From positions 1 through 53,815 of IMG/VR virus record IMGVR_UViG_3300045988_111174: a stretch of 53,815 bases of DNA; one strand, 5' to 3'. Source of the stretch: a virus. The notes below the pieces were generated by a model that was given only the letters and a program-made list of their open reading frames with translations, was not told the origin of the DNA and did not search any database. The position numbers and the translations under genes were made by a program. Below, piece after piece: positions 4,382 through 24,190 of the stretch. How positions within the stretch are numbered: the stretch's first letter is position 1; the number at the start of each line of letters is the position of its first letter.

Positions 4382-4524
4382 CACTCATCCTCCTCTCCCT
4401 TGTGCCTCGTCTCTTGCCACCGTTCATATTCATCATCCGCGTCGCTCCCGGCGACGATGATGGCGTACACCGCCGCAACGCCCAGCGCGGCGACGATGCC
4501 GATTGCGATCCAGATGGCGATCAT
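4381..4524 (-). CDS. Small membrane protein (47 aa, one TM, acidic tail)
   Basis: Translation is MIAIWIAIGIVAALGVAAVYAIIVAGSDADDEYERWQETRHKGEEDE. ATGA overlaps the upstream gene stop at 4521. Confidence 0.45.
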   Translation of the reverse strand: MIAIWIAIGIVAALGVAAVYAIIVAGSDADDEYERWQETRHKGEEDE

Positions 4525-5168: not shown

Positions 5169-5512
5169 TTGCCTAACGCCTCCTCTAGGATGTTCCGCGC
5201 GCTTCTCGGCCACGAGGTGCTTTCGTTCCAGCCCGGCGTATCGGATTCCATGCGATAGCATTCAACCGTTTCGAGGCCGACATCGAGTTCCGGGACGGCC
5301 CACGTAGACGCAAGATAGGTGTACTCATCAGTGATCAGCTTCCCGTCCTCGTAGATCATGCCGCCCGTGTTGCAAAAGTCGCCGCGAAGTCCAGCCCACG
5401 CGCGGTGCGGCTTTTTCTTCGCGATAAGGCGCGCGGCCTTGTCCCAGTCAAAGACCATCCTCTCTTTGCCGCGGTTCGCTTCGCCCATCACAAATGCGTC
5501 CAAAGTATTCAT
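5165..5512 (-). CDS. Hypothetical protein
   Basis: 115-aa ORF with coupled overlaps at both ends. Confidence 0.7.
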   Translation of the reverse strand: MNTLDAFVMGEANRGKERMVFDWDKAARLIAKKKPHRAWAGLRGDFCNTGGMIYEDGKLITDEYTYLASTWAVPELDVGLETVECYRMESDTPGWNESTSWPRSARNILEEALGK

Positions 5513-9560: not shown

Positions 9561-10048
9561 GGCTTTTCCTCCCTTCTGTCAATCCACGTCACGCCCACGG
9601 CCATTGCCGCCCATTCGTCGGCGGCGAAGCCGTAGAACACGTCCGGCTTTTTCTTGGTGCCCTTGCCGTTTTTGAAATCGTGCTTGGCAAATCGGTCGAT
9701 GAGCGCCCGTCGTATATTTGCGTCTCCCGCCTTTGCGTCGTGGCAGATGGCGAGCTTTTCGTCGAGGCGGTAGACGTAATCCACCGCATAGCCGTTGGCG
9801 ATGGCCTTCTGGGCAAAGCGCCCCACCCATTCGCAGGTTTCAAAGACGGTCTTTCCGACGGCCATTCCGTAGGAGGCGATGCGCTCTACGACGAGATAGT
9901 TGCAGCAGTGCGCGTAGTCCTCAATGATCTTGAGGAGGCTGTCGTTTTTGACCTTGCCCTTGTCGTAGATCGTGTAAAAGTCTCCGAGCAGGACAAAGGC
10001 GGAATCGATGTTTCCGGGGTCGATGGCAAGAATCAGCATGCGTTTCAC
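9467..10048 (-). CDS. RuvC-like Holliday junction resolvase
   Basis: MLILAIDPGNIDSAFVLL..., LVVERIASYGM... and ADEWAAMAVGV give the D/E/D acidic pattern of RNase-H-fold resolvases. Confidence 0.7.
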   Translation of the reverse strand: MKRMLILAIDPGNIDSAFVLLGDFYTIYDKGKVKNDSLLKIIEDYAHCCNYLVVERIASYGMAVGKTVFETCEWVGRFAQKAIANGYAVDYVYRLDEKLAICHDAKAGDANIRRALIDRFAKHDFKNGKGTKKKPDVFYGFAADEWAAMAVGVTWIDRREEKPCTLVPLQSRKENTASSQGAKAAPSPLTPSV

Positions 10049-11379
10049 TCCCTCCGATCGATGCAGCTAAATTTCATGCGCGCCGGGTCGAACAGCGCGA
10101 CGGCGGTGCGGGTGACGCCCTGCCGCTGCTTTGCGACGTTGATGGCGACGTACTGGTATCCGGCGTTTTTGTAAGCGTCAAAATACTGCCGGTCGTCCGG
10201 GTGGACGTATCGGTCGGACGCGTCGTCCGGCTTGTGCAGAAAGATGACGTTATCCGCGTCCTGCTCCAGATCGCCCGAGCCGCGCAGCTCGGAGAGCGTT
10301 GGCATTGTCCCCTGCGAGGAGCGCCCCACCTGCGCCAGCGCCAGAATGGCGATGTTGTAGTCGGTGGTCATGTCCTTCAGGGCCTTTGAGACGTATCCGA
10401 CGCGTAGATAGTCCTTGTCGAATTTCCGCTTGGTCTGTAAGAGCTGGACGTAGTCCACCACGAGGAGGTCGAGGTCGTTCGCGTCCACCTTCTTCTGCAC
10501 CTCCATGCGCAGGTCTTCGACGTAGCGCGTGGAGAACATAAACGAGACGTTCATGGCGGAGAACAGGCTAAGGCTCTCGGAAATCTGCGCCCAGTCCTCC
10601 GGATCGAGATCGCCGGAGCGGAGCTTTTCGCCGGGGATGTCGATGCCGCGGGCGATCACTCGCGAGCCGTACTGCGTCGCGGTCATTTCCCGGGAGCAGA
10701 TGCCGACCTTATAGCCCTGAGCGGCGGTTGCCAGCGCGATGTGTGCGCCCAGCGCGGACTTTCCGACGGCGGGACGCGCGCCGAGGAGCGTCAGTTCGCC
10801 GCGGCGGAAGCCTCCGATGATCGTGTCCAGCGTGGCAACACCGGAAGGCATGGACGGCTCTTCGCCCTTTGCGCGGCGCTCCAGCATGTCGTAGGTGTCC
10901 AGCAGCACATCCGCCATGGAGACCCACGCGTGACGGGTGGTGACAACGTCCCGGAGCGCCTGCCGCGTTGCGTCCAGCACCGCCGCTGCGTCGTTCTCGC
11001 CCTCCATGAGCTGGTTCTCAGAGCTCTTCAGGATTTCAAACAGCTTTCGCCGCATGGCCGCGGCCTTGATGATTTCCACGTGGCTCTTTGCGTTCCATGC
11101 GGCGGAAAACGTTCCGCCGGAGAGAATCTCCATGAGCCGGTTGGTGAGCGCCGGTTCGCCCGCGCCGTAGAGTGTTTTCATCGCGTCGGTGACTGTGACC
11201 AGATCGACGGGCCGCTTGGCTGCGTAAAGGCTCTGGGCCGCTGCGAAAATGCGGCTGTACTCGTCGCTGTGGAAGTCCTCGGCCCCGAGCTGGGCGATGA
11301 TGTCCGATGCGCCCGGGTCGGTGACGATGAGGGCGAGGACGGATCGCTCGGCCTCCTCGTTGTAAAACGGGCTGCTCAT
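10045..11379 (-). CDS. dnaB: Replicative DNA helicase DnaB
   Basis: The N-terminal DnaB domain is NEEAERSVLALI. Walker A is GARPAVGKSALG. LLVVDYVQLL, LAQVGRS and SELRGSGDLEQDAD are also present. Confidence 0.95.
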   Translation of the reverse strand: MSSPFYNEEAERSVLALIVTDPGASDIIAQLGAEDFHSDEYSRIFAAAQSLYAAKRPVDLVTVTDAMKTLYGAGEPALTNRLMEILSGGTFSAAWNAKSHVEIIKAAAMRRKLFEILKSSENQLMEGENDAAAVLDATRQALRDVVTTRHAWVSMADVLLDTYDMLERRAKGEEPSMPSGVATLDTIIGGFRRGELTLLGARPAVGKSALGAHIALATAAQGYKVGICSREMTATQYGSRVIARGIDIPGEKLRSGDLDPEDWAQISESLSLFSAMNVSFMFSTRYVEDLRMEVQKKVDANDLDLLVVDYVQLLQTKRKFDKDYLRVGYVSKALKDMTTDYNIAILALAQVGRSSQGTMPTLSELRGSGDLEQDADNVIFLHKPDDASDRYVHPDDRQYFDAYKNAGYQYVAINVAKQRQGVTRTAVALFDPARMKFSCIDRRE

Positions 11380-12128
11380 CGCACAAATTCGACGGGCGGT
11401 TCATCGCGCTTCTGCGCCGCCGGTTCCGCCGATGCGCTGCGCGCCGACTTCTTCGTCCGGTCATGCTCGATGCGCCGGGCCTGCGCCGCCTCTCCGGAGC
11501 GGATTCCCTGCGCCGCGTACTCCTCCAGCACCTTTTTCAGGTACGCAAACGGTCGGGCGGGTTGGGCGGCGTTGGTCTCCTCGATGGCCACGATGACCGC
11601 GTCCGCGCCCAAATCCTCGACGTAGGACATGAGCTTCTGCTCCGACAGTCCCATCGGCAGCGTGCCGATCTGGGTCTGGTACGCGTCCGTCACGCGCTTG
11701 TACTCCGGGTCGATCAGGTCGGACAGTACGACTGAATCGTACGGTTCCTCCGCTGGCTCGTCCTTTTCGCCCTTCTTGCCCTTCCAGCGGGCGTTCGCGT
11801 TGTTCTGGGCCGTTCTGGTCTTCTCCTCAGCGCTGCGCGTGCGGCGCTTCAGGGATTCCGACCAGAATTTTTTATCGCTGGCGGAAAACAGCCCGATCTC
11901 GATGCAGTCGTCCACAAACTTGGTCAGGTCAAAGGACGGCTGAATGCTGATCGTAAGCCCGCCGATGCAGCGGTCGGAACGCTCCAGCTCGAGCTTCGCC
12001 GTGCGGCTCATGGCCTCCAACAGCGCCCAGAACACGCCGTAGCCCTCCATGCCGTAAATTCCGCGCAGCTCGGAGATTTTGTTGTCGCTGAGCGCGTTGC
12101 GGTCGTGACTGAAATACAGGTCTTTCAC
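11376..12128 (-). CDS. Replication initiation / helicase-loading protein (DUF4373-type N-terminus plus DnaD-like C-terminal domain)
   Basis: The N-terminus is YFSHDRNALSDNKISELRGIYGMEGYGVFWALLE. The C-terminus is TDAYQTQIG.L....QKLMSYVEDLGADAVIVAIEET......PFAYLKKVLEEY. The gene overlaps the dnaB start. Confidence 0.7.
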   Translation of the reverse strand: MKDLYFSHDRNALSDNKISELRGIYGMEGYGVFWALLEAMSRTAKLELERSDRCIGGLTISIQPSFDLTKFVDDCIEIGLFSASDKKFWSESLKRRTRSAEEKTRTAQNNANARWKGKKGEKDEPAEEPYDSVVLSDLIDPEYKRVTDAYQTQIGTLPMGLSEQKLMSYVEDLGADAVIVAIEETNAAQPARPFAYLKKVLEEYAAQGIRSGEAAQARRIEHDRTKKSARSASAEPAAQKRDEPPVEFVR

Positions 12129-12140
12129 GGTGCTCCCTCC

Positions 12141-12878
12141 TCAAAACGGGGTGAGATTCAAGTCTATTTCCATTCCGGCGGATGCGGCGACGGTGTCGAT
12201 TCCCGTCAGCGCGGAGATCGCGTCCACCATGCGCCTTTCGTCGCTTCGCGCGTCGGACAGGTGGCACAGGACGATTTTCCGCGTGTCGGTCAGATCGTTG
12301 GCGGCGAGCGTATCCTCGAGCCGCTTCAGCGACATGTGGCTGCCGAGCAGGCGGTTTCGCATGGCCTTTCCGATCGCTCCGGCCTCCATCTGGGCCTTGG
12401 CGACGTCGTCGCAATAGTTGCACTCGACGAGCCAGTAATTCACGCCGGGAAAAGTGTTTCGCAGGTAATAGGTGTCGGTGGCGTACAGCAGCGTTTCGCC
12501 GCTGCCGCGGTTTTGCACAAGATATCCACAGGGCTGACGCGCGTCGTGCTGCGTGGGAAAGGGCAGGACGGTAAACGCGCCGATTTCCAGCGGCTCAAGC
12601 ATCCTGACGGGGCGAACGCGCGGCTCGGAGAGGCGGGCCGCCTCAAGCGTGCCGGGCGTTGCGTAAACGTCCACGCCCATTCGGGCGAGATCGCGCGCGC
12701 CTGCGATGTGGTCGCCGTGCTCGTGGGTGACGAGGCAGCCGCAAAGCCCTGTCAGGCCGCGCATTTCGCGGATGATCCGCCTTGCCGGGAGTCCCGCGTC
12801 CAGAAGGAGCGCGGAATCCCCGGCGGCGAGCCTGTAGGCGTTTCCGGCGGAGCCTGTGCCGATTACTTTCAGGCGCAT
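12141..12878 (-). CDS. Metallo-beta-lactamase-fold hydrolase (recombination-associated nuclease-like)
   Basis: VIGTGSAGN...LLLDAG...LVTHEHGDHIAG carries the HxHxDH motif. Confidence 0.8.
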   Translation of the reverse strand: MRLKVIGTGSAGNAYRLAAGDSALLLDAGLPARRIIREMRGLTGLCGCLVTHEHGDHIAGARDLARMGVDVYATPGTLEAARLSEPRVRPVRMLEPLEIGAFTVLPFPTQHDARQPCGYLVQNRGSGETLLYATDTYYLRNTFPGVNYWLVECNYCDDVAKAQMEAGAIGKAMRNRLLGSHMSLKRLEDTLAANDLTDTRKIVLCHLSDARSDERRMVDAISALTGIDTVAASAGMEIDLNLTPF

Positions 12879-12880
12879 GG

Positions 12881-13741
12881 TCAGAAGTCAGGCTCTCCGG
12901 CTGCGTCCGGCTCCGGCTCGGGTTCCTCCGGCGGAATCTCCAGCTCGATTTCCGAGGCCTCCATGGAGGCCGTCTGGATCGGCTGGGTGTCGGCGGGAAT
13001 GGCGGCGGCGGGCGCTTTCGGCAGCGTCACGGGCGCGCCGTTGGCGTTCTCGGCCACCTCGGCCTCGATGGTATCCTCGTAGTCCTGCGAGATGGCGCTC
13101 GCAAACTCCACGGACATCACGCCGTACTTGGAGATGAGGGCCTTGAGTACGGTCTTGATGGCCATCGCGTCGAAGTCCGTATGCCACGGAGAATCGGCCT
13201 TGCTCCACGCCTTGGAGAAGCGTTTGGCGTGGGCCTCGACCTTCTCGCGAGACCAGTACACGCACTTTTCAAAGCCGTTGAGGAGCTGGAAATAGGCGAA
13301 GTAGCCGATAGGCGTATCGCTGGTGGCCTCGCCAGCGATCTCAAGCATGCCCGTGATGCGGTTGTAGTGTACGGCCTCGCCCTCGTAGACCGCATCGGCG
13401 TTGAGGTACTTGTACTGGCCGCTGCGCTGGGCGAGCTGAAGCAGGCCCTTATAACCCAGCTGGAATTGAGGCACATTGCCGTAGGGGATGACGTAGCAGA
13501 AGCCGAGGGACTTCGCCACGGGCAGCTTCAGGGCCGCCGCCTTCATGCACTCGGCCATGACGCGGGTCGCGTCGCACTGGCTGAGCTTGGAGTCGCTGGT
13601 GTAGAGATCGAGGGCGGAGGCGAGGAACGTTCCGGCCTCCTTGCCGAGCAGGTTATTCATGCGCGCCTTGATCTTTTCGGACGCGATGAGGGATTTCATC
13701 TGGTTGATGTTGGCCTGACGGACGGTGAGCTGATTTGCCAT
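12881..13741 (-). CDS. recT: RecT-family single-strand annealing recombinase
   Basis: CMKAAALKLPVAKSLGFCYVIPYGNVPQFQLGYKGLLQLAQRSGQYKYL matches the RecT core. Confidence 0.85.
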   Translation of the reverse strand: MANQLTVRQANINQMKSLIASEKIKARMNNLLGKEAGTFLASALDLYTSDSKLSQCDATRVMAECMKAAALKLPVAKSLGFCYVIPYGNVPQFQLGYKGLLQLAQRSGQYKYLNADAVYEGEAVHYNRITGMLEIAGEATSDTPIGYFAYFQLLNGFEKCVYWSREKVEAHAKRFSKAWSKADSPWHTDFDAMAIKTVLKALISKYGVMSVEFASAISQDYEDTIEAEVAENANGAPVTLPKAPAAAIPADTQPIQTASMEASEIELEIPPEEPEPEPDAAGEPDF

Positions 13742-13744
13742 GAT

Positions 13745-15730
13745 TTACGCGACCTCCCTGACGTTTTCGGTGGTGACGGTGAGCGCGGGCGAGTTGTCCA
13801 CGCTGAGGGTGATGAGCTGCCCGGCGGGGCGGGCGACATAGTTGACGCGCTCGGCGTTGTCCACAAACAGCGGCGCGATGACGTCGCAGCGGCGGGACAG
13901 CACGCCGATGATCTCGATGTCCGCATTGACCCTCGCGGCGGTATTCGCGCCTCCGTAGGGCACGAGCGCGCCGTCTCCGGGGATCATGCACTCGCAGCAG
14001 TCCGCCAGCGCGCCGTTGATCTGGCGGTCGAAGAGCTTCCAGCGCACCGTGGGGAACTGCTCGTTGATGCGCTCCTCCAAGAGTCCGCACCGGGCGGACA
14101 CGAAGCGCTCCACATCCGAGATGAGCACCTCCACCTCGGCGCGCCGCTGGCCGATCTGCGTCTGCTGGGCCTCCAGCTCGGCGATGCGCGCGTCGGCCTC
14201 TTTCGCCCGGTCTCGCTTGGCGAGGGTCTCCCTCGCGGCGGCGATTCGCGCTTTGAGTTCGCTGCGCCGGTCGTCAAACTGGCGAGCGCGGAAATCGGGC
14301 GCTTCGGTCTTTGCCGTTCTGAGGCCCGTAAGGCGGCTTTGGAGCGCCTCGACATTCTGGTCAACAGAATAATCGACTTCGGCAGGAAAATCGGCGAGAG
14401 CGGCCTTTGCGGCCGTCTGAACGGCATCAGCGTCGTTTACTTCCCGCTCCGCGTGCTGCAAATCCTCTTCGGCGGCCCTCAGGCGCTCGGAGACGTATTG
14501 CTCGCGCTTTTTGAGCTCCTGACCGCGCGCGTTGATCTTTTCCAGCCTCGCGGCCCTGTCGGCCTTGTGGGCGGCCCGGTGCTTTATCAGCGCGTCGGCG
14601 ATCTTTTCCGTGGGGATGGACTGGCCGCAGGTGGGGCAGGTCTCGGCCATCTCCAGCGGCGGGCAGGCCTCCGTGTAGACGCGCCTGTAGTCGGCCCGGA
14701 GCTGGTCGAGCTGGTCGGCCAGTTCCGCGGCGCTGCGCTTTGCGTCCTCGACGGTGCGGCGGAAGCTGTCGGCGGAGCGGCGGGCGGTATCCGAGCGGCG
14801 GATCGCGTCGGACAGGGCGGTGCGGAGGCGGTCGCGGCGGGCGTTGAAGTCGTCGGACAGGCGGCGCTTGGCGGCGATCAGCTCCGTTTCCACGGAGAGG
14901 ATTTCCCGCTGGAGCTCCGCGGCCTCGCCGTTTCCGGCCCTGAGGGCGGCGGCGGCCTCCTCGCAGCTCTGGAGGCTCTTCTCCGCGTCCCGGAGGCTGT
15001 ACTCCGCGTCCCGGATTTCCGCGTCGCCGTACTGGGGGCGCATGCGGCGCACCTCGTCGATGCGGGCCGGGAGGAGCTGCAGCTCCTTGGCGAGCTTTGA
15101 GCGGCGGTCGGCGAGCACCTTGCGCAGATCGTCCACGGCGCAGCCCACGCGGGAGAGCTCCTCGGCGATGGGCGCGTATTCCGGGCGGGAGAGCAGCTCC
15201 GCGTCCACGTCCACTCCGGACATGGACAGGAGCATGGCGCGCCGGTCGCGCTTATCCATGGCGTTAAACGCGCCGAGGGTGGTCAGCAGGCGGAACATGT
15301 CGCCGCTGGCGATGGCGTTGATGCGGTCGGCGAAGTCCGCCGCCTTGGTCTCAACCTCGTTGATCCAGTAGGTGGACGCGTTGCCCTGATAGACGGCCTC
15401 GGCGGCTCCGCGCTTCTTGACCCAGTTTTCGCGCTGTATACGGCGAAGGACGAATGGCTTGCCGTCCAGCGTGAAGTCCGCGGTGACGCTGGTGTCCAGC
15501 CCGTGGATTTCCTGCCCGTTCGCGTCCAGCGGCTTTTCGCGGAACCTGTCCGAGCCGGGCGCGTCGCCGTTGGCGTTCTTGTTGCCGAGCAGCCAGCAGA
15601 ACGCGTCCACGATGCTGCTCTTGCCAGTGGCGTTGCCGCCGCAGATGCGGGTTTCATCGCCGAAGCGATAATCGGCGCTGCGGATGCCCTTGAAATTCTC
15701 GATGTGCAGCGCGTTTAGATACAGGTGCAT
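13745..15730 (-). CDS. SbcC/Rad50-like SMC-family ATPase with zinc hook
   Basis: The N-terminal motif is IENFKGIRS...GGNATGKSSIVDAF (Walker A). Long coiled coils carry a central CPTCGQ hook. The C-terminal signature/Walker B region is PLFVDNAE. Confidence 0.8.
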   Translation of the reverse strand: MHLYLNALHIENFKGIRSADYRFGDETRICGGNATGKSSIVDAFCWLLGNKNANGDAPGSDRFREKPLDANGQEIHGLDTSVTADFTLDGKPFVLRRIQRENWVKKRGAAEAVYQGNASTYWINEVETKAADFADRINAIASGDMFRLLTTLGAFNAMDKRDRRAMLLSMSGVDVDAELLSRPEYAPIAEELSRVGCAVDDLRKVLADRRSKLAKELQLLPARIDEVRRMRPQYGDAEIRDAEYSLRDAEKSLQSCEEAAAALRAGNGEAAELQREILSVETELIAAKRRLSDDFNARRDRLRTALSDAIRRSDTARRSADSFRRTVEDAKRSAAELADQLDQLRADYRRVYTEACPPLEMAETCPTCGQSIPTEKIADALIKHRAAHKADRAARLEKINARGQELKKREQYVSERLRAAEEDLQHAEREVNDADAVQTAAKAALADFPAEVDYSVDQNVEALQSRLTGLRTAKTEAPDFRARQFDDRRSELKARIAAARETLAKRDRAKEADARIAELEAQQTQIGQRRAEVEVLISDVERFVSARCGLLEERINEQFPTVRWKLFDRQINGALADCCECMIPGDGALVPYGGANTAARVNADIEIIGVLSRRCDVIAPLFVDNAERVNYVARPAGQLITLSVDNSPALTVTTENVREVA

Positions 15731-17134: not shown

Positions 17135-17353
17135 GTGGAGGTCAATGACGCTCTCAAGCGCTTCAGAGCTGAATTCGGTCTGACCCAAACTCAGGCGGCG
17201 AAATTCGCCGGCGTATCCGTCGCCATGTACCAGTTTTACGAGTACGGCCGCCATGAGCCGAAGGTGTCGGCTCTTGTCGCTCTGGCGAAGCATTGCGGTG
17301 TGTCGCTGGATTATCTTACCGGGCTTACCGACAATCCGGCGAGAAATCCATGA
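17135..17353 (+). CDS. XRE-family HTH protein (paralogue A1)
   Basis: GTG start with GGAGGTGG upstream. The sequence FGLTQTQAAKFAGVSVAMYQFYEYGRHEPKVSALVALAKHCGVSLDYLTGLTDNP contains the HTH. Confidence 0.8.
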   Translation: MEVNDALKRFRAEFGLTQTQAAKFAGVSVAMYQFYEYGRHEPKVSALVALAKHCGVSLDYLTGLTDNPARNP

Positions 17354-17583
17354 TGGGGACGCGCATGCAGCTCTCGGATGCACTCAGGCGTTTTCGTCAG
17401 GACTTCGGCCTCACGCAGAAGCAGGTGGCATCTGCCGCCGGGGTTACTGAGCAGGTTTACCAGAAGTACGAGTACGGCACGGTCGTTCCCCGTGTGTCGA
17501 TTCTCATCCGGCTTTCCGAGACCTTTAACGTGTCTCTGGACTACCTCGCCGGGCTTAGCACCGACCCGGCGAGGCGGCCGTGA
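17350..17583 (+). CDS. XRE-family HTH protein (paralogue A2)
   Basis: The ATG at 17350 overlaps the A1 stop (ATGA). The sequence FGLTQKQVASAAGVTEQVYQKYEYGTVVPRVSILIRLSETFNVSLDYLAGLSTDP contains the HTH. Confidence 0.8.
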   Translation: MMGTRMQLSDALRRFRQDFGLTQKQVASAAGVTEQVYQKYEYGTVVPRVSILIRLSETFNVSLDYLAGLSTDPARRP

Positions 17584-17593
17584 CGGTGGGCGC

Positions 17594-17923
17594 TCAGCGC
17601 GCCCACATGTCTCTGAGTTCCGCCACCCGGCTGGTCTCCTCGGCGGGCTGGCAGGTCATGAAAGCGGCCATGAGGACGGCAGAGTAGGTCTTGTGTTTCC
17701 ACTCGCAGATCAGCGTCTCAAGGTCTTCGGCGATCTCGTCATGCTCTTCGATGGGCTGGTCGTCCAAAGTCTCAACCAGCGTCCACAGAGCGTCGGTATA
17801 GCCGAGCGCGAGGTTGCCGTGGGCTTTTGCCCTGTCGTAACTCTCCGCGCTCTCGATGTTCTTCAGCGTCTCGGAAATCGTCTCGCTGTAGTTCGCGATA
17901 AACTTAATCAGGCTCAGCTTCAT
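17594..17923 (-). CDS. Small acidic hypothetical protein (109 aa)
   Basis: Start at the internal ATG at 17923 with GAGGAGG upstream. The protein is rich in D/E (LVETLDDQPIEEHDEIAEDLETLICEW). Confidence 0.6.
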   Translation of the reverse strand: MKLSLIKFIANYSETISETLKNIESAESYDRAKAHGNLALGYTDALWTLVETLDDQPIEEHDEIAEDLETLICEWKHKTYSAVLMAAFMTCQPAEETSRVAELRDMWAR

Positions 17924-17949
17924 GGTTTTCGTCCTCCTCGTTGTCGTTG

Positions 17950-18123
17950 TCAGATGCGCTTGCCCTCGTAGGTGTCGATGCCGCAGGCGAAGCAGTACTC
18001 GTCGGCCTCGCGGCGGGAGCGGAAGGTGCCGATCAGCTCGAAGCGGCAGCCCGGCCATACGCTCTGGGCCTTTTCCCGCTCGGTGTAGATGATCTTGGAG
18101 TCGCTGATGTAATATTTACGCAT
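17950..18123 (-). CDS. Small hypothetical protein (57 aa)
   Basis: Translation is MRKYYISDSKIIYTEREKAQSVWPGCRFELIGTFRSRREADEYCFACGIDTYEGKRI, with GAGGAGG 7 nt upstream. The ORF is below the ORF-track cutoff. Confidence 0.5.
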   Translation of the reverse strand: MRKYYISDSKIIYTEREKAQSVWPGCRFELIGTFRSRREADEYCFACGIDTYEGKRI

Positions 18124-18205
18124 TGTGGTTTCCTCCTCGTCTCGGTCGCGATTGACAGTCGCCTGTCGGTGTGGTAGAGTGGTCTCAAGGCTCCGGGGTT
18201 GTTCC

Positions 18206-18255
18206 CTCTCTCAACCTTGTGAGTTAATTATACCAAACCAAACTTGGTTTGTCAA
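18206..18255 (-). promoter_or_regulatory. Consensus sigma-A-type promoter with a palindromic operator in the spacer and a conserved initial transcribed motif
   Basis: On the minus strand, TTGACA (18255..18250) is followed by the 17-nt spacer aaccaagtttggtttgg, which contains the palindrome AAACCAA-GT-TTGGTTT. TATAAT (18232..18227) follows, then TCACAAGGTTGAGAGAG (18222..18206). Confidence 0.7.
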
Positions 18256-18301
18256 TACTTTTTTGGTTTGAATTTATATTTTTTTTCAGGAGGAATGCAA
18301 T

Positions 18302-18532
18302 ATGCCGAAAATCCCAGTTGACAAATTCGCGGGCCGCTTGAAAGAGCTTCGCCTTGCCGCCGGGTTGACCCAGAAGGAGGCCGCCACCGCTCTTGGGATG
18401 CCTGAGCCCCTCTGGCAGAAATACGAGTGGGGACTCAGCGTGCCGTCCCTTGGCAAGTGCATACAGATCGCCGACCTGTTCGACGTCTCGCTCGACTACC
18501 TCGCCGGGAGAAGCGATGACCGCTCTTGTTAA
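18302..18532 (+). CDS. XRE-family HTH protein (paralogue B1)
   Basis: AGGAGG lies upstream. The sequence LRLAAGLTQKEAATALGMPEPLWQKYEWGLSVPSLGKCIQIADLFDVSLDYLAGRSDD contains the HTH. Confidence 0.8.
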   Translation: MPKIPVDKFAGRLKELRLAAGLTQKEAATALGMPEPLWQKYEWGLSVPSLGKCIQIADLFDVSLDYLAGRSDDRSC

Positions 18533-18562
18533 GATTTTTTTAAGCAGCTTGGAGGTATCACT

Positions 18563-18787
18563 ATGGCGAAACAGATCGTCGCTGACAGGATTAAGCAGCT
18601 CAGGCTTTCTGCCGGGCTTACGCAAAAGGCTGCGGCCGAATTGCTTCCGACAAGCGAGCGGCAGTGGCAACAATACGAGTACGGCACACGCACTCCGGCC
18701 TATGAAAAGCTGATCGCACTCGCGAATCTTTTCCAGTGCTCGACAGATTTTCTCTGCGGCCTGACGGATGATCCGACTCGCAAGTGA
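18563..18787 (+). CDS. XRE-family HTH protein (paralogue B2)
   Basis: GGAGG lies upstream. The sequence LRLSAGLTQKAAAELLPTSERQWQQYEYGTRTPAYEKLIALANLFQCSTDFLCGLTDDP contains the HTH. Confidence 0.8.
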   Translation: MAKQIVADRIKQLRLSAGLTQKAAAELLPTSERQWQQYEYGTRTPAYEKLIALANLFQCSTDFLCGLTDDPTRK

Positions 18788-18823
18788 TCGTATTCCGTCT
18801 CCGTTTTTCCGTTTTTTTCTGCC

Positions 18824-18866
18824 AGCCAGCCGCCTGCAAACTCCGTTGCGACGGCTGGCTTTTTTC
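18824..18866 (+). terminator. Rho-independent terminator after the B1/B2 HTH pair
   Basis: The stem is AGCCAGCCG ... CGGCTGGCT (9 bp) with an inner GCAA/TTGC pair, followed by TTTTTT. Confidence 0.75.
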
Positions 18867-18940
18867 GCTCTCACTATCTAAGTTATTTAGTACTATTGCT
18901 GCTTGCTTATTATATATATTATATTTAATTTTACCGTGCC

Positions 18941-19083
18941 GTTGCATTGCAAAAGCGATGCAAACCAGCATGGGTTTTGCAATGCCATCGCAATGCAACC
19001 GCATTGCGGACACGATGCAAAGCCGATGCAAACTGTTTCAGTTTTGCAATGCAATGGCAATGCAATTGCATTGCAACTGCATG
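18941..19083. repeat. Iteron array L: clustered TGCAATGCA/TGCATTGCA and GATGCAAA motifs
   Basis: By eye there are about 10 copies of GCAATGC/GCATTGC in both orientations, for example ttgcattgcaa, tcgcaatgcaacc and tgcaatgcaatggcaatgcaattgcattgcaactgcat. There are three GATGCAAA copies. Confidence 0.85.
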
Positions 19084-19298
19084 ACGGCAAAACGCCGTGA
19101 TACCAAGGGTTTTCGGGATTTTTAAGTTTTCAAAGATCGAATTTTCGAGAATTTTTTTTCGCGCTTCGCTTCGGATTTTTTTCTGCGAAAAATTTTTTTG
19201 CCGCTCGAATCGTCGTCGAAAAATCGCATGTTAAGAAATTATGATGACGTTTTTCGCGGGACTTTTTTTGTGCCGAACGCTTTATATTCCAAAAAGTT
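19084..19298. other. A/T-tract-rich non-coding core between the two iteron arrays (candidate DNA-unwinding or bent region)
   Basis: T5-T9 and A5 tracts recur, interspersed with cg-containing spacers (gaattttttttcgcgcttcgcttcggatttttttctgcgaaaaatttttttgccgc...). GC content is much lower than in the flanks. The ORFs here are low-complexity translations. Confidence 0.6.
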
Positions 19299-19510
19299 CG
19301 ATGCAAAGCCATTTTTTTGCATAAGCCTTGCATTGCAGTTGCATTGCAACATGGATGCTGCTTTGCATTGCAACCGCATTGCAAAGGGTGATGCAAAGCC
19401 GATGCAAAATCATCTGAGTTTGCAATGCAACTGCAATGCGACTGCTATGCAATGGCAATGCAAAACGGATGCAAACCAGCAATGCAATGGCAATGCAACT
19501 GCATTGCAAA
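19299..19510. repeat. Iteron array R: clustered TGCATTGCA then TGCAATGCA motifs, partly a direct repeat of array L
   Basis: By eye there are about 14 motif copies. The left half is mostly TTGCATTGCA and the right half mostly TGCAATGCA. The 19-nt string gatgcaaagccgatgcaaa is exact at 19014..19032 and 19390..19408. The string gcaatgcaatggcaatgcaa-(t)tgcattgcaa is shared. Confidence 0.85.
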
Positions 19511-19524
19511 AATGACGCAAAAAA

Positions 19525-19818
19525 TCACGCCCGACGGAGCCTTTTCGGAGGGTTTTTTGAGCCGGAATCGAACACCCGGAAGAGGCGTTTCCCTGGCTGA
19601 ACACTGGCTCCGCCCATGGGGAAAACCTCGTTGAGCTGGTCGTGGGGGACGTAGTAGCGGTTGAGGACGGCATACATTTCGCCCAATTTCCACTCTGCGC
19701 GATTGTTCATTCTGTCACTGACGGACTGGGGACTGAGCAGGAGGAGCCGGGCGAGGTCGGCCTGCGTATCGTCGTTTTCGCGCATCAGGCCGCGGAGTTT
19801 GGCGTAGGGTCTGGACAT
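19525..19818 (-). CDS. DUF739/XRE-like phage regulatory HTH protein
   Basis: YAKLRGLMRENDDTQADLARLLLLSPQSVSDRMNNRAEWKLGEM matches the DUF739 pattern (Y.KL+G.i.E...tq..fA..l..S..s.s.K.N). Confidence 0.6.
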   Translation of the reverse strand: MSRPYAKLRGLMRENDDTQADLARLLLLSPQSVSDRMNNRAEWKLGEMYAVLNRYYVPHDQLNEVFPMGGASVQPGKRLFRVFDSGSKNPPKRLRRA

Positions 19819-19839
19819 AATGGCATCTCCTTTCGGGCC

Positions 19840-20586
19840 TTACGAGGCTCTGAGGCGGCGCAGAAGCACCATTTGCCCCTTGCCGGTGATGAGCGTCGTC
19901 GTGCGCACGAAGCTGCCTGAGATCGTCGTCACTGGGCTCTCCTTCATCTTAAAGAGGCCCTGATCGACGTATTTCTGGTACGGCTGGTTATTGCTCATAA
20001 GGTAGCCGTTTTCCCGCAGCCAGCGGAACATGCGGTTCTGGCCAATGCGGATGCCGTTGTTATAGGCGAGCTTGGCAAACTCGCCGACGAGGATCGCGTC
20101 GCTGCTTGCCGCGATGGCCTTACCAAAGCCCGTGTACGGAGCGTCCTTCTCAATCTGCTCTGTGAGGGCCTTGCGGCGGGCACGCTCGTCCTTCAGCTCG
20201 GTGGCTAGGCGAATGAGCGTGTCCGGGTTCAGGAGGGCTTCTTCGACCTTCTGGGGCGTGAGATAGCCACCGTGAGAGCGGATGGCCGGGAGAACCTCGC
20301 TCGTGACCCAGCGCTTAAACTGCTTCGCGCCGGGGAGCTTGCTGCCGAGAACGAGAGAATAGAAGCCGGACTCGTTGATAATGGTAACATCCTGCCTGCC
20401 GCCAAGGGTGTCACATTTCGTTACCCCCTTATCCTCATCGTCAACGTGGTCGATGAGCGCCTTACGCGGGTTGACGTAGCCCAGGCGCTCTGCAACGTCC
20501 TTGCCGACCAGCCAGCTTTCGCCGTCGATCTCTACGCCGCGGATTTCGCCAAATTGTTCGTTGTGGAAAACCTTCAGATCGTTCAT
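19840..20586 (-). CDS. Phage antirepressor (Bro-N domain plus KilAC/ANT C-terminal domain)
   Basis: The Bro-N part is LKVFHNEQFGEIRGVEIDGESWLVGKDVAERLGY.NPRKAL..HVDDEDK...SGFYSLVLGSKLP.AKQFKRWVTSEVLPAIR. The C-terminal part is FAKLAYNNGIRIGQNRMFRWLRENGYL. Confidence 0.85.
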   Translation of the reverse strand: MNDLKVFHNEQFGEIRGVEIDGESWLVGKDVAERLGYVNPRKALIDHVDDEDKGVTKCDTLGGRQDVTIINESGFYSLVLGSKLPGAKQFKRWVTSEVLPAIRSHGGYLTPQKVEEALLNPDTLIRLATELKDERARRKALTEQIEKDAPYTGFGKAIAASSDAILVGEFAKLAYNNGIRIGQNRMFRWLRENGYLMSNNQPYQKYVDQGLFKMKESPVTTISGSFVRTTTLITGKGQMVLLRRLRAS

Positions 20587-20606
20587 CTTCGATGACCTCC
20601 TTCTTC

Positions 20607-20852
20607 TCAGGCGCTCTTTTCGAGGCCGAACAGAACGTTCGGGGAAACGTTCAGCGTAACGGCCAGACGGACTACGTCGTCGATCTTGATAAGCCTCCGG
20701 CCCGTAAGCATGGCTGAGAAATTGACCGGGGAAATTCCGGCCTGCCGGGCGACGTGGCTCATCTTCAGGCCGCGGGCCGAGATGATGTCTCGGATCGTCT
20801 GGGGCATGGCTCCGTTGGCTTCGCTGATGTTATTCGTAGCGGGCAAGTACAT
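20607..20852 (-). CDS. Cro-like HTH regulator (start uncertain: 20882 TTG, 20852 ATG or 20807 ATG)
   Basis: TIRDIISARGLKMSHVARQAGISPVNFSAMLTGRRLIKIDDVVRLAVTLNVSPNVLF. It is divergent from the CI-like gene. Confidence 0.7.
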   Translation of the reverse strand: MYLPATNNISEANGAMPQTIRDIISARGLKMSHVARQAGISPVNFSAMLTGRRLIKIDDVVRLAVTLNVSPNVLFGLEKSA

Positions 20853-20920
20853 CCCTCCATTTTCATTTTTTGCAATGAACAAATTTATATTTCAACGGTT
20901 TTTCAGTAGTTTCCGGGGAT

Positions 20921-21018
20921 AGTGTATTGCATTAAATGCAATATGTCAATAGGTTTAGCAAAAAAATTGCACCAAATGCAATTTTTATCTTGACAAATCT
21001 TGACTTTGGAAATAAAAT
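20921..21018. promoter_or_regulatory. CI/Cro-type switch: divergent promoters with two ATTGCA-N-TGCAAT operators
   Basis: O1 is ATTGCAT-TAA-ATGCAAT at 20926..20942, a perfect 7-bp inverted repeat. O2 is ATTGCAC-CAA-ATGCAAT at 20966..20982. The plus-strand promoter is TTGACA (20990), a 17-nt spacer and TAAAAT (21013..21018). The minus-strand promoter is TTGACA (20949..20944), a 17-nt spacer and TACACT (20926..20921), with O1 in its spacer. Confidence 0.7.
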
Positions 21019-21054
21019 ATAAATAGAGAAAGGATAATAAGGAGGGCTTGAATT

Positions 21055-21414
21055 GTGTTCAACACACAGCTCAGAAAGGCCCGGGAAGCCATGGGGCTTT
21101 CGCAAGGGGACGTTTCAAATCTGACGGGGATTCCAACGTCCACAATTTGCAAATATGAGACGGGAAAATCCCAGCCGGGCATCTCAAAAATATTGCAGCT
21201 AATGAAAGTTTACAACGTCGATGCGGATTTTTTGTTCTGCGACGAAATTGCAGCTGCGGAAATTTCAGCGGTGGCCTTATCGCCGGAGGAAAAGGACGTG
21301 CTCTATAAATACAGGACGCTGGACGGGCCCGCGCGGAACATGCTCGGAAACGTTTTGGACTACGCCGCGCAGGAGGCCGTAGAAGCGCCCTCTCAGGAGG
21401 GCGGAAGCACCTGA
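21055..21414 (+). CDS. CI-like XRE-family repressor
   Basis: GTG start with AAGGAGGG upstream. The HTH region is LRKAREAMGLSQGDVSNLTGIPTSTICKYETGKSQPGISKILQLMKVYNVDADFLF. A C-terminal extension follows. The gene heads the rightward lysogeny block that ends in the integrase. Confidence 0.75.
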   Translation: MFNTQLRKAREAMGLSQGDVSNLTGIPTSTICKYETGKSQPGISKILQLMKVYNVDADFLFCDEIAAAEISAVALSPEEKDVLYKYRTLDGPARNMLGNVLDYAAQEAVEAPSQEGGST

Positions 21415-21599
21415 GAGATTTTCGCGCCGGGGCGGGCGCACAGGTTGACGTAGCGCGTGAGCGGCTCTGAGACGGTAAAGAACTCGAATACTTCCGGGCG
21501 CGTGGGATCGCTGACAAACATGACCTGGAATTTCCCATCGTGGGACAGCCGGGTACACAGTTCCCTGAGCGCCTCAACAGATCGCATCTTTCCTCGCAT
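21393..21599 (-). CDS. Small hypothetical protein (68 aa), convergent with and overlapping the CI-like gene 3' end
   Basis: ATG at 21599 with GGAGGTG 9 nt upstream. Translation begins MRGKMRSVEALRELCTRLSHDGKFQVMFVSDPTRPEVFEFFTVSEPLTRYV.... Confidence 0.4.
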   Translation of the reverse strand: MRGKMRSVEALRELCTRLSHDGKFQVMFVSDPTRPEVFEFFTVSEPLTRYVNLCARPGAKISQVLPPS

Positions 21600-22293: not shown

Positions 22294-23031
22294 GTGGGAA
22301 AATGTGTAAAATGCGGGCGGCACGGGCTGTTTGTCCGCGTAAATGGCGATGGGCTGTGCGCAACGTGTCAGGGAATTAGTGATGCAATTGCCGCGGTCGC
22401 GAATGCAGTTACGGGAAGCCGTGGGAATTGTAAGCCTTCGAAACCGGAAAAAACGATCATTCCGAAGCGGAGCACGTATCTGAAAGATCGTAACGGAAAG
22501 CGTATTACGAAAAAAGATTACTCTATCATTTTCGACATGAGCGCCTTTTCAGAGCTAATAAACAACACGTACCAAATTGACGGGGAACACAATCGGAGCA
22601 TAATACAGCGCGATGCCGTCGAGATGGTAAAGCTGGCAAATGCACTTGAGGTAGATGCTTTTGACATTCCGCATGTCGAGGCGGATGGCCTATGGCTTGA
22701 TTTTAGTTATGTAGAGAGTAGAGGGCAATGTAAGACGACTGCTCAATTCGAGCCAAAATATAATGGTAAAATGCCAAATCCTTGCATGACTATTGGTTTT
22801 GCTTTTGACGAGGATTTGTTTGGCGTGCTGGAATATGATAAAAACGAGCTTTGCGGCGGAAAGGTAATAAAATGGTGCCGTACAAAAATAGAAGCTCCGG
22901 ATTATGTAAGGCTGGGAGGAACCTGCTGGGTTGCGCGCTTTATAAAGATTGGCGAAAACATGGAACTGTACGAAGCTATAAAGACGATTGACGGAAAACG
23001 TCAGGTTATTTACAGGCGCAGGAAAAAATGA
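22294..23031 (+). CDS. Orphan accessory protein (N-terminal zinc ribbon), visibly A/T-richer than the rest of the genome
   Basis: GTG start with GGGAGGA upstream. The N-terminus is MGKCVKCGRHGLFVRVNGDGLCATCQ. I recognise no family for the remainder. The gene lies between the repressor block and the integrase. Confidence 0.65.
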   Translation: MGKCVKCGRHGLFVRVNGDGLCATCQGISDAIAAVANAVTGSRGNCKPSKPEKTIIPKRSTYLKDRNGKRITKKDYSIIFDMSAFSELINNTYQIDGEHNRSIIQRDAVEMVKLANALEVDAFDIPHVEADGLWLDFSYVESRGQCKTTAQFEPKYNGKMPNPCMTIGFAFDEDLFGVLEYDKNELCGGKVIKWCRTKIEAPDYVRLGGTCWVARFIKIGENMELYEAIKTIDGKRQVIYRRRKK

Positions 23032-23053
23032 TACAACGATGAGGAGGGTGGAT

Positions 23054-24190
23054 ATGGCTGCAAGGAGAACCGCCGAAGCAATCTGGATCGAATCGAAGAA
23101 ATATTGGCAAATCAAGGTGCAGCGCAACGGCGTGCGCAAGGCGTTTACTTCCTCTATAAAAGGGCGAAAAGGGAAGCACGAGGCCGAAGCAAAGGCGGAC
23201 GAATGGCTGGACAGCGGAACCGAGGATATGCGCTTTGACGTTGCCGCAAAGATGTTTCTGGACGATATTCAGCGCAGGACCGGTCGGTCAAATTACGAGA
23301 ACAACGAGTGGGCGATGCGTCTTTACATCCTGCCGGAAATAAAGGCACGGAAACTATCTACAATTACTAAGGCGATGTGGCAATGCTGCATTCTGCGCGG
23401 CGCGGAGGCGGGCCTCTCAAGGCGGTCATGCTCAAACGTGCGCAGCACTATAATGGGCTTCATCAGTTTTGCAGAATCAAACAGATGGAAAATCGAAAAA
23501 CAGGACGCGAAAAAATTCACAATCCCGAACACTGCTGCCCCGAAGAAAGAGAAGATCATCTTGCAGCCGGCGGAGATTCACATGCTTTTTGAAAATGATA
23601 CTGTGACGAATCGCGGGAAGCCCGTCTTTACTCGCAATATTTACGCATGGCGTTTTTACGTTGTGACGGGTCTGCGGCGTGGCGAGCTTTGCGGGCTGAG
23701 AAAAGACGATCTTATCGGGAACGCGTTGATTATAAAACGGAATATAAATACCTATGGTCAGGAGACGTCTGGTAAAAACGACAACGCCCGGCGCGAAATA
23801 CTGCTGCCAGATGTAGCGATACAGGTTTTAAAAGATCAGAAAGAAATGCTGATGCGCGAAGGGGTTATTGCCTCAGAGTGGATTTTCCCGAACAAGTATG
23901 GAGAAAGGATGAATCCAAAGTACGTTTATACTACGTGGAAACGATTTGCGCTTCAGCACGGCATAAAATCATCCCTGCACGATCTGCGCCACACATTCAT
24001 CTCCGTAAACAAAAGCGACCTCCCGCTCGTGCTGATGAAATCCGTAATAGGGCATTCTAAGTCAATGGATACATACGGCGTTTACGGACATGATGTCGAA
24101 GGGGAAAAAGAGCGTGCTGCGCAGATCGTAGACGGCGTTTTTGCCAAAATTATAGGCGATGCGGGTGGAAAAGTGGGTGGAGATAAATAG
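23054..24190 (+). CDS. int: Tyrosine recombinase / phage integrase
   Basis: Start at ATG 23054 with GAGGAGGG upstream. Catalytic-region motifs are GLRRGELCGL, HDLRHTFIS and GHSKSMDTYGVYGH (R..HxxR..Y). Confidence 0.9.
   Translation: MAARRTAEAIWIESKKYWQIKVQRNGVRKAFTSSIKGRKGKHEAEAKADEWLDSGTEDMRFDVAAKMFLDDIQRRTGRSNYENNEWAMRLYILPEIKARKLSTITKAMWQCCILRGAEAGLSRRSCSNVRSTIMGFISFAESNRWKIEKQDAKKFTIPNTAAPKKEKIILQPAEIHMLFENDTVTNRGKPVFTRNIYAWRFYVVTGLRRGELCGLRKDDLIGNALIIKRNINTYGQETSGKNDNARREILLPDVAIQVLKDQKEMLMREGVIASEWIFPNKYGERMNPKYVYTTWKRFALQHGIKSSLHDLRHTFISVNKSDLPLVLMKSVIGHSKSMDTYGVYGHDVEGEKERAAQIVDGVFAKIIGDAGGKVGGDK

What the first reader, a model, noticed from the sequence alone, without database searches (positions are those of the whole stretch)
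18941..19510. Two dense arrays of TGCAATGCA/TGCATTGCA iterons flanking a phased A/T-tract core: candidate origin or protein-titration site
Seen in the sequence: about 570 bp have no credible ORF.
- Array L (18941..19083) holds roughly 10 motif copies by eye, and array R (19299..19510) roughly 14.
- The GCAATGC/GCATTGC motif often appears as the palindrome TTGCA-T-TGCAA. GATGCAAA units are also present.
- A 19-nt exact repeat (gatgcaaagccgatgcaaa) and a near-identical block of about 30 nt (gcaatgcaatggcaatgcaa..tgcattgcaa) occur in both arrays.
- In array R the motif orientation switches midway, giving dyad symmetry.
- The 215-bp core between the arrays is a run of T5-T9 and A5 tracts separated by short CG-containing spacers.

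Established knowledge: iterons flanking an AT-rich unwinding element are the classic layout of phage and plasmid origins. The phage encodes a DnaD-like initiator/loader and DnaB but no obvious origin elsewhere.

Alternative inference: the half-site TTGCA/TGCAA is the same as in the CI/Cro operators at 20926..20982. The arrays could therefore be a high-capacity sink or looping anchor for the repressor or antirepressor circuit, or a centromere-like site.
Basis: partly seen in the sequence, partly recalled or inferred. Interest (0 to 1): 0.65.

Follow-up and report, generated by a model that had tools for sequence, protein, structure and literature searches.

The report
Displaced, expanded phage replication origin
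This gene-free stretch of a gut temperate phage is most likely its replication origin: about 30 short repeats to which the phage's own initiator protein would bind, sitting 7 kb from the initiator gene rather than inside it as in related phages.

Summary
Positions 18942-19087 and 19297-19521 hold 22 strong units, in about 33 slots of 11 bp. The units are TTGCAWTGCAA or nnCGATGCAAA. 24 of the genome's 25 exact GCAWTGCAA sites lie here, and these are the only 11-bp-periodic segments in the 53.8-kb circular genome.

They flank a T-rich 205-bp core. Next to array L lies the least stable 60-mer of the genome (18874-18934).

The same iteron at the same 11-bp spacing occurs in at least 119 other phage contigs. 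A composition-matched control motif occurs in 1. In 54 of 118 contigs it lies inside a gene with a Lin1244_N (DUF4373) domain, in the linker before a DnaD-like domain, followed by an A-rich tract.

This phage encodes such a protein (11376-12128) next to DnaB, but its linker is short and has no iterons. Its closest relatives, with about 60% identical N-domains, carry GCAATGC iterons in the gene and no external array.

Best reading (about 0.7): the lytic origin, moved out of the initiator gene and expanded into two arrays. This is a new variant of a known kind. No binding or replication data exist.

The CI/Cro-sink alternative fails: the operator geometry TTGCA-N5-TGCAA never occurs in the arrays.

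The parts
18825..18865 (+). Terminator-like hairpin ending the rightward small-XRE operon. Stem 18825-18834 / 18850-18859, 9 of 10 pairs, followed by T6.
   Evidence: Read directly from the sequence. The scan tool missed it because the loop is 15 nt.
18874..18934 (.). Very AT-rich block (25% GC) abutting array L. Candidate DNA-unwinding element.
   Evidence: Least stable 60-bp window of the whole 53.8-kb genome by nearest-neighbour energy. 100% identical in the relative L043. The external array of L146 is followed by an AT-rich block in the same way.
18942..19087 (.). Array L: about 13 slots of 11 bp, with 9 strong units (TTGCAWTGCAA or nnCGATGCAAA).
   Evidence: The relative lacks 67 bp of it, about six units.
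19088..19296 (.). T-rich core (A-rich on the strand of the replication genes), 38% GC, with T4-T8 and A5 tracts. Candidate unwinding region or spacer between the arrays.
   Evidence: Only 5 substitutions and one 1-nt indel against the relative. It corresponds in position to the A-rich tract that follows in-gene iterons in other phages.
19297..19521 (.). Array R: about 20 slots of 11 bp, with 13 strong units. T-centred units at 19328-19384, A-centred units at 19420-19498.
   Evidence: The relative has one extra 11-bp unit and lacks 35 bp.
19514..19531 (-). Weak terminator-like hairpin at the end of the leftward cro-ant-DUF739 operon.
11376..12128 (-). Predicted initiator (replisome organizer): Lin1244_N (DUF4373) N-domain plus DnaD-like DnaB_2 C-domain. 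Short 43-aa linker without iterons.
   Evidence: Pfam. PHROG 'replication initiation protein' and 'DnaD-like helicase loader'. Linker DNA. AF2 model with a winged-helix-like N-domain, pLDDT above 95.
10045..11379 (-). Phage DnaB-type replicative helicase, overlapping the initiator gene's end.
   Evidence: Pfam DnaB and DnaB_C, E 2e-53.
12141..15730 (-). Conserved companion module: SMC-like ATPase, RecT and MBL-fold protein. It accompanies this initiator in all related contigs except L149, which has only RecT next to the gene.
   Evidence: The same gene order appears in L143, L146, L147, L151, L153, L180 and L181.

Best explanation
The region is the phage's lytic replication origin. The two arrays of 11-bp units would be binding sites for the winged-helix-like Lin1244_N domain of the protein encoded at 11376-12128.

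Within each block of 2-5 units the 11-bp spacing places bound proteins on one face of the helix, so a large nucleoprotein complex forms on each array. The strain, helped by the easily melted DNA next to the arrays, opens the duplex. Two stretches could melt: the T/A-tract core at 19088-19296, and the 25%-GC block at 18874-18934. The protein's DnaD-like C-domain then brings in the phage DnaB helicase (10045-11379) and the host replisome.

In most phages with this initiator family the iterons and an A-rich tract lie inside the initiator gene, as in lambda O and SPP1 G38P. Here the gene's linker is short and iteron-free. The origin lies 7 kb away between two converging, terminated operons, and has expanded to about 30 units in two arrays.

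Shown: the anatomy, the family association and the in-gene/external dichotomy. Inferred: binding, melting, helicase loading, and which AT-rich segment opens.
For: **1. The repeat is specific to this region.**
- 24 of 25 exact GCAWTGCAA sites lie here, and these are the only 11-bp-periodic segments of the genome.

**2. The motif is a real, widespread phage element.**
A control motif of the same composition hits 1.

**3. The motif goes with one protein family.**
- In 54 of 118 of those loci the motif lies inside an ORF with a Lin1244_N domain. The HMM was built from the N-domain only, so iteron-coded peptides cannot bias it.
- 12 more loci have it inside DUF1376 ORFs.
- An 11-bp period is not a multiple of 3, so the repeat is kept at the DNA level, not the peptide level.

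**4. Homologues chosen by protein alone show the same iterons.**
- L136 (41% identity) has in-gene ATGCAA iterons at 11 bp followed by an A-rich tract.
- L137 (35% identity) has the same.
- Class A relatives L151 and L153 (about 60% identical N-domain, same gene module) have the same, and no external array within 10 kb on either side.

**5. Homologues fall into two classes.**
- One class has linkers of 108-121 aa full of iteron-coded tripeptides.
- The other has linkers of 40-55 aa without them. The window's protein is in this class.

**6. A second externalised case exists.**
- L146 (46% identity, short linker) has about 17 units of 11 bp (TGAACAYATGY) plus a 130-bp AT-rich block, about 6 kb upstream of the same module.
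- Its iteron is different, and it has no XRE or DUF739 neighbours.

**7. The iteron sequence varies with the subfamily.**
- GGTCATGA x4 at 11 bp in E. coli phage MagusPhagus.
- ATAGCAATGC in Lactobacillus phage JNU_P2.
- AATCATGA-type repeats at 21 bp in Vibrio phage Athena1.
- All occupy the same linker position and are followed by an A-rich tract.

**8. Other support.**
- The least stable 60-mer of the genome abuts array L.
- The arrays change by whole units between two close variants while the flanks and core are conserved.
Against: - There is no experimental evidence of binding, melting or initiation.
- Only one other variant of this phage was found (L043/L120/L173), so conservation of the external layout rests on two near-identical genomes plus the analogous L146.
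- Several short-linker relatives (L143, L149, L150) show no array in the DNA held.
- The core is only moderately AT-rich.
- The clearly asymmetric GATGCAAA units lie on the T-rich strand. In in-gene origins they share a strand with the A-rich tract.
- The same iteron occurs with at least three N-domain families: Lin1244_N, DUF1376 and a Pfam-less family. This leaves room for a shared host factor.
- The Foldseek support for a winged-helix fold is not significant (E at least 1).
Confidence: 0.7

Rival explanations
1. The initiator binds the arrays, but one or both act mainly as a titration or handcuffing locus that controls the timing of initiation. This would resemble P1 incA or E. coli datA (comparison from memory). 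The true start site would be elsewhere or in only one array.
For: The unit number (about 30) far exceeds the 3-15 units of in-gene origins. There are two separate arrays. Copy number varies freely between variants.
Against: No other iteron cluster exists in the genome to serve as the real origin. AT-rich DNA adjoins both arrays. A lytic phage has little obvious need for copy control.
Confidence: 0.12
2. The arrays are binding sites for a transcription regulator of the immunity region: one of the four small XRE paralogues, the DUF739 protein, or CI/Cro. They would act as a roadblock, sink or looping anchor between the immediate-early and replication operons.
For: The arrays lie between two HTH-rich operons. 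The half-site TTGCA/TGCAA is shared with the CI/Cro operators.
Against: - The operator geometry TTGCA-N5-TGCAA is absent from the arrays.
- The relative keeps the arrays although two XRE-bearing segments are replaced or absent.
- The same iteron elsewhere goes with replication-initiator genes, not with XRE genes.
- L146's analogous array has no HTH neighbours.
Confidence: 0.07
3. A centromere-like partition site. Two sets of 11-bp repeats flanking a bent core resemble R1 parC or P1 parS (from memory). It would be bound by one of the two ParB_N-domain proteins or by an unrecognised adaptor.
For: Two ParB_N proteins are encoded, at 190-843 and 51220-51825. 11-bp iterons in two sets are the R1 parC layout.
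Against: - No ParA, ParM or TubZ was found among the roughly 50 of 73 called ORFs scanned with Pfam.
- The phage has a tyrosine integrase.
- The ParB_N genes sit by the terminase, as is usual for phage ParB-like nucleases.
- The iteron is tied to initiator genes in other phages.
Confidence: 0.04
4. The repeats are recognised by a conserved host factor, or are a cluster of methylation sites (TGCA is a 4-bp palindrome). The phage initiator would not be the binder.
For: An identical GCAATGCAA core occurs with at least three different N-terminal domain families and in phages of very different GC content.
Against: The iteron differs between Lin1244_N subfamilies and in L146. That pattern fits phage-specific recognition. 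No DnaA boxes lie in the region.
Confidence: 0.05
5. A packaging (pac/cos) site or an attP site.
For: Repeat clusters flanking a bent region occur in P1 pac and in attP arms (from memory).
Against: - The large terminase is at 49454-50719, about 30 kb away.
- The integrase is 3.5 kb away with the immunity genes in between.
- Neither kind of site uses about 30 tandem 11-bp units.
Confidence: 0.02

Closest known systems
Bacillus phage SPP1 oriL/oriR with replisome organizer G38P
   Same: The initiator has an origin-binding N-part and a DnaD-like part. Iterons ('AB boxes') lie next to an A-T-rich unwinding element. G38P also binds a second site (oriR) far from its own gene (PMC5737612).
   Different: - The N-domain family differs: Lin1244_N here, and G38P is a different family from memory (not tested).
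- SPP1 keeps an in-gene origin and has a separate helicase loader, G39P.
- Here there is no in-gene copy and no loader gene between the initiator and dnaB. There are many more, shorter units at 11-bp spacing.
Phage lambda ori within gene O (from memory)
   Same: Iterons plus an AT-rich tract lie in the linker-coding part of the initiator gene. This is exactly the layout seen in the window's relatives.
   Different: Lambda has four 18-19-bp iterons inside the gene. The window has about 30 units of 11 bp outside the gene, in two arrays.
SaPI (S. aureus pathogenicity island) origins
   Same: Short iterons in two sets flank a central AT-rich region, with units pointing in opposite directions across it. 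They are bound by a winged-helix domain (PMC9371898).
   Different: SaPI iterons are 5-6 nt and number 6-12. They lie immediately 3' of rep and are bound by a self-loading Rep helicase. No such gene is present here.
In-gene ATGCAA-type iteron clusters of Lin1244_N/DUF4373 and DUF1376 genes
   Same: The same core (GCAATGCAA or GATGCAAA), the same 11-bp spacing, the same mixture of the two unit types, and an adjoining A-rich tract.
   Different: Those clusters hold 3-15 units in one orientation inside the gene. The window's is intergenic, bipartite, larger and in both orientations.
Plasmid R1 parC / ParR centromere (from memory)
   Same: Two sets of 11-bp repeats flank a central segment.
   Different: parC lies directly upstream of parM-parR and contains their promoter. 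No actin-like or other partition ATPase was found here.

Membership tests
Iteron-type theta origin served by a phage replisome organizer (lambda O / SPP1 G38P kind) | Cluster of repeated short sites (iterons) | tested here: met
   22 strong units in about 33 slots; unique in the genome.
Iteron-type theta origin served by a phage replisome organizer (lambda O / SPP1 G38P kind) | Adjacent AT-rich unwinding element | tested here: met
   18874-18934 is the least stable 60-mer of the genome. The core is 38% GC against 58% for the genome. This is sequence-level evidence only.
Iteron-type theta origin served by a phage replisome organizer (lambda O / SPP1 G38P kind) | Cognate initiator with a DNA-binding N-domain and a helicase-recruiting DnaD-like C-domain, plus a helicase, on the same element | tested here: met
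   Lin1244_N + DnaB_2 at 11376-12128 and DnaB at 10045-11379. The winged-helix fold of the N-domain is only suggested.
Iteron-type theta origin served by a phage replisome organizer (lambda O / SPP1 G38P kind) | Origin embedded in the initiator gene | tested here: not met
   There are no iterons in 11376-12128. The arrays are 7 kb away. This is typical of the family rather than obligatory: SPP1 oriR is also outside the gene.
Iteron-type theta origin served by a phage replisome organizer (lambda O / SPP1 G38P kind) | Initiator binds the iterons; replication starts there | not testable with these tools
   Only comparative association is available.
ATGCAA-class 11-bp iterons of Lin1244_N initiators (class defined here) | Core GCAATGC(AA) or GATGCAA repeated at 11 bp | tested here: met
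   compared.
ATGCAA-class 11-bp iterons of Lin1244_N initiators (class defined here) | A Lin1244_N-family gene in the same genome, close to those with in-gene iterons | tested here: met
   N-domain 58-64% identical to class A proteins that carry in-gene GCAATGC iterons.
SaPI-type origin | Two iteron sets flanking an AT-rich centre | tested here: met
   definition from PMC9371898.
SaPI-type origin | Located directly 3' of a Rep (self-loading helicase) gene whose C-terminal winged helix binds it | tested here: not met
   The flanking genes are XRE and DUF739 HTH proteins. The only helicase is DnaB-type.
Type II (ParMRC) or other plasmid or phage centromere | Adjacent partition ATPase and adaptor genes | tested here: not met
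   No ParA, ParM or TubZ in about 50 of 73 called ORFs scanned with Pfam. The remaining unscanned ORFs are mostly structural.
CI/Cro operator set | Operator geometry TTGCA-N5-TGCAA as at 20927 and 20967 | tested here: not met
   The pattern occurs only at those two places.
Any Rfam RNA family | Match at gathering score | tested here: not met
   Only sub-threshold mir-33 look-alikes, caused by GCAUUGCA.

The most novel reading that the evidence does not exclude
The ATGCAA/GCAATGC unit at 11-bp spacing would be an undescribed origin 'code', shared by a very large set of phages of widely different GC content and read by the Lin1244_N (DUF4373) and DUF1376 N-domains. This phage would show that such an origin can leave the initiator gene, multiply to about 30 units in two arrays, and perhaps also act as an initiator sink or transcription barrier between the immunity and replication operons.
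Probability: 0.35. Interest if true: 0.55.

Novelty: new variant of a known kind. Interest (0 to 1): 0.4.

Why it matters
- **Origin prediction.** Origins of uncultured gut phages are almost never mapped. This gives a concrete, testable origin and initiator-site pair for a common but uncharacterised initiator family (DUF4373 / Lin1244_N).
- **A search rule.** Look for short repeats at 11-bp spacing followed by an A-rich tract in the linker of the initiator gene. If the linker is short, look in intergenic DNA. This rule could annotate origins in thousands of phage genomes.
- **Evolution of the origin.** The in-gene versus external split within one clade shows how an origin escapes double coding constraints.
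- **Practical use.** Such origins are useful for building shuttle replicons for poorly tractable Clostridia.

Tried and rejected
**Searches for relatives**
- A distant blastn of 18000-21500 against cultured phages matched only the antirepressor gene.
- tblastn with the initiator against cultured phages found only distant homologues (at most 36% identity). None has ATGCAA arrays, but they do have other iterons at the same place.
The nearest homologues are from Clostridia MAGs.
- The metagenome scan with the 19-mer gave one true relative (L173, the same variant as L043/L120) and 24 unrelated, probably chance, hits.

**Checks on method**
- My first iterated full-length HMM pulled in 81 loci. I discarded that figure because iteron-coded peptides could bias it. 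The 54 of 118 figure comes from an N-domain-only HMM.

**Hypotheses tested and dropped**
- Rfam gave only spurious mir-33 hits.
- There are no DnaA boxes in the region.
- Phasing of the T-tracts is not significant.
- The PDB sequence search found nothing. Foldseek found nothing significant, only weak winged-helix hits.
- pac, attP, centromere and CI/Cro-sink readings were rejected on position, gene content or site geometry.

**Literature**
- Searches for DUF4373, Lin1244, DUF1376 or the motif together with 'iteron' found no paper describing this association.

Full report
**Setting.** The window is a complete, circularly assembled temperate siphophage. It has a 55-nt terminal direct repeat and 58% GC. 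Reading leftward on the minus strand, the early region runs as follows:
- CI-like gene (21055-21414, plus strand) facing a Cro-like gene (20607-20882)
- Bro-N/KilAC antirepressor (19840-20586)
- DUF739 HTH protein (19525-19818)
- the gene-free region under study
- four small paralogous XRE genes on the opposite strand (17135-18787)
- SMC-like ATPase, RecT and an MBL-fold protein
- a Lin1244_N + DnaB_2 (DnaD-like) protein (11376-12128)
- DnaB helicase (10045-11379)

A tyrosine integrase lies at 22988-24190 and the large terminase at 49454-50719. Both flanking operons end in terminator-like hairpins before the arrays (and sequence read).

- Every copy of GCAATGCAA (7), GATGCAAA (7), TGCATTGCA (6) and TTGCATTGCAA (4) in the window lies in 18900-19530.
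- 24 of 25 exact GCAWTGCAA sites lie there.
- The unit is an 11-bp near-palindrome, TTGCA-W-TGCAA, with the variant nnCGATGCAAA.
- A strict parse finds 9 units in array L and 13 in array R, against 9 isolated hits in the rest of the genome.
- An 11-bp autocorrelation scan singles out only these two segments.
- The register is strict within blocks of 2-5 units. Blocks are joined with +1 or +2 bp, giving a mean period of about 11.5.
- The 19-nt and 31-nt shared blocks and the switch of the central base within array R are as described.
- The claimed phasing of the T-tracts is weak.
- Just left of array L, outside the stated coordinates, lies the least stable 60-mer of the whole genome (18874-18934, 25% GC). 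The core itself is 38% GC.

**What it is.** A control motif of the same composition and layout returned one.

One locus, L043, is a close relative of the window. Most of the others are unrelated, lower-GC phages in which the repeat sits inside a gene.

I built an HMM from the N-terminal domain of the window's 11376-12128 protein only, so that iteron-coded peptides could not bias it. With it, 54 of 118 loci carry the DNA motif inside a Lin1244_N ORF. Twelve more carry it inside DUF1376 ORFs. Others are intergenic, next to very AT-rich DNA.

The repeat lies in the linker after the N-domain and is followed by an A-rich or purine-rich tract. Because 11 is not a multiple of 3, the peptide is not repetitive. 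The repeat is therefore conserved as DNA.

**Tests not selected by the motif.** Homologues picked by protein similarity alone give the same answer.
- L136 (41% identity), a Clostridia MAG homologue, has about 15 in-gene ATGCAA-type units at 11 bp plus an A-rich tract.
- L137 (35% identity) has 6 such units plus an A-rich tract.
- Among 51 database homologues there are two classes. Class A proteins (312-327 aa) have a 108-121-aa linker full of iteron-coded tripeptides. Class B proteins (240-267 aa) have a 40-55-aa linker without them.
- Class A contigs (L151, L152, L153) have N-domains about 60% identical to the window's and the same ATPase-RecT-MBL-initiator-DnaB module. They carry GCAATGC iterons at 11 bp in the gene and no external array within 10 kb on either side.
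- The window's protein is class B. Its linker DNA has no iterons.

A second class B phage, L146 (46% identity), also has an external intergenic array. It holds about 17 units of 11 bp with a different sequence (TGAACAYATGY), followed by a 130-bp very AT-rich block, about 6 kb upstream of the same module. It has no XRE or DUF739 neighbours.

More distant cultured-phage homologues have other short repeats at the same linker position, mostly at 11-bp or 21-bp spacing and again followed by an A-rich tract. Examples are GGTCATGA in an E. coli phage, ATAGCAATGC in a Lactobacillus phage and AATCATGA-type units in a Vibrio phage.

So the repeat sequence changes with the protein subfamily while the layout stays. 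That is the pattern expected for an initiator and its origin.

**Close relative.** The only other variant found is L043/L120/L173, 95-97% identical in flanking genes. It keeps both arrays but differs by indels of 67, 11 and 35 bp, that is, whole units or nearly so. The AT-rich block is identical and the core nearly so. Two of the XRE-bearing segments are replaced or missing in it. This argues against those proteins being the array's partners.

**Mechanism proposed.** The Lin1244_N domain would bind the units. An AlphaFold model has pLDDT above 95 in this domain with topology H-β-H-H-β-β. Only weak Foldseek hits were found, nearly all to winged-helix domains.

Same-face arrays would build a large complex on each side. 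The adjoining AT-rich DNA would melt. The DnaD-like C-domain would deliver the phage DnaB. Binding, melting and loading are all inferred.

On the strand of the replication genes, the order array R, then A-rich core, reproduces the in-gene order of iterons followed by an A-rich tract. The order array L, then AT-rich block, mirrors L146.

**Rivals.**
- *CI/Cro sink.* The half-site is shared, but the operator geometry TTGCA-N5-TGCAA occurs only at 20927 and 20967.
- *Centromere.* No partition ATPase was found among about 50 of 73 called ORFs scanned. The two ParB_N proteins sit by the terminase.
- *pac or attP.* The position is wrong.
- *RNA.* Only spurious sub-threshold mir-33 matches.
- *Titration or handcuffing by part of the array.* Not excluded.
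- *Host-factor reading.* The same core is found with three N-domain families, but this is weakened by the subfamily-specific iterons.

**Comparison with known systems.**
- The design is that of lambda ori/O (from memory) and SPP1 oriL/G38P: iterons plus an unwinding element, with the initiator also binding a distant oriR (PMC5737612).
- The two-sets-around-an-AT-centre layout is that of SaPI origins (PMC9371898).
- It differs in three ways. It is outside the initiator gene with no in-gene copy. It has about 30 very short 11-bp units in two arrays. It uses an initiator family for which I found no published origin.

**Verdict.** This is a credible phage origin, a new variant of a known kind. The interest is moderate. 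The broader by-product is the family-wide rule linking Lin1244_N/DUF1376 genes to short repeats at 11-bp spacing. That rule may be the more useful result.

Noticed in passing
window 17135-17353, 17347-17583, 18302-18532, 18563-18787 (+): Four paralogous XRE HTH genes of about 75 aa, in two tandem pairs, oppose the direction of early transcription. The close relative lacks or replaces the segments 17355-18131 and 18235-18519. Their role is unknown.
   Followed up: partly
window 18227-18255 (-): A perfect sigma-70 consensus promoter (TTGACA-17-TATAAT with extended TG) points leftward toward 17594-18058, back to back with the XRE gene that starts at 18302. This looks like a second switch-like module.
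   Followed up: no
window 20927-20941 and 20967-20981: Two operators, TTGCA-N5-TGCAA, lie in the CI/Cro intergenic region. They are the only two such sites in the genome; 0.03 are expected by chance.
   Followed up: yes
window 4521-5261 (-) and 12141-12878 (-): A Tad3 (Thoeris inhibitor) homologue, E 2e-25. An MBL-fold protein with a weak, sub-threshold Apyc1 (anti-Pycsar) match.
   Followed up: no
window 190-843 (-) and 51220-51825 (-): Two ParB_N-domain proteins flank the packaging module, with no ParA.
   Followed up: partly
window 1-55 and 53761-53815: A 55-nt exact terminal direct repeat: the window is a circular assembly of the whole phage.
   Followed up: yes
many IMG/VR loci, e.g. L118 1153-1270, L022 1846-2040, L136 10362-10565, L151 10400-10525: 11-bp iterons followed by an A-rich tract lie inside Lin1244_N genes, DUF1376 genes and a Pfam-less (L134-like) gene family. 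Some genes also have a second small cluster inside the N-domain coding part (peptide NAYAMQLQCK).
   Followed up: partly
L180 12950-13245: A Faecousia-assigned contig with a class B initiator has a GC-rich intergenic array of GGCA(A/G)GG units every 5-10 bp, downstream of dnaB and with no AT-rich block. It may be another externalised origin or something else.
   Followed up: no
L143 526-892: CTGACTACAT repeats and what reads like a tRNA 3' fragment lie next to the integrase. These are likely attP arm sites.
   Followed up: no
window 35656-35802: A 45-bp tandem repeat of 3.3 copies lies inside the 1621-aa tail gene.
   Followed up: no
window 18937-19514: Rfam mir-33 and mir-4703 matches lie below the gathering score on both strands. 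They are an artefact of the GCAUUGCA repeat.
   Followed up: yes
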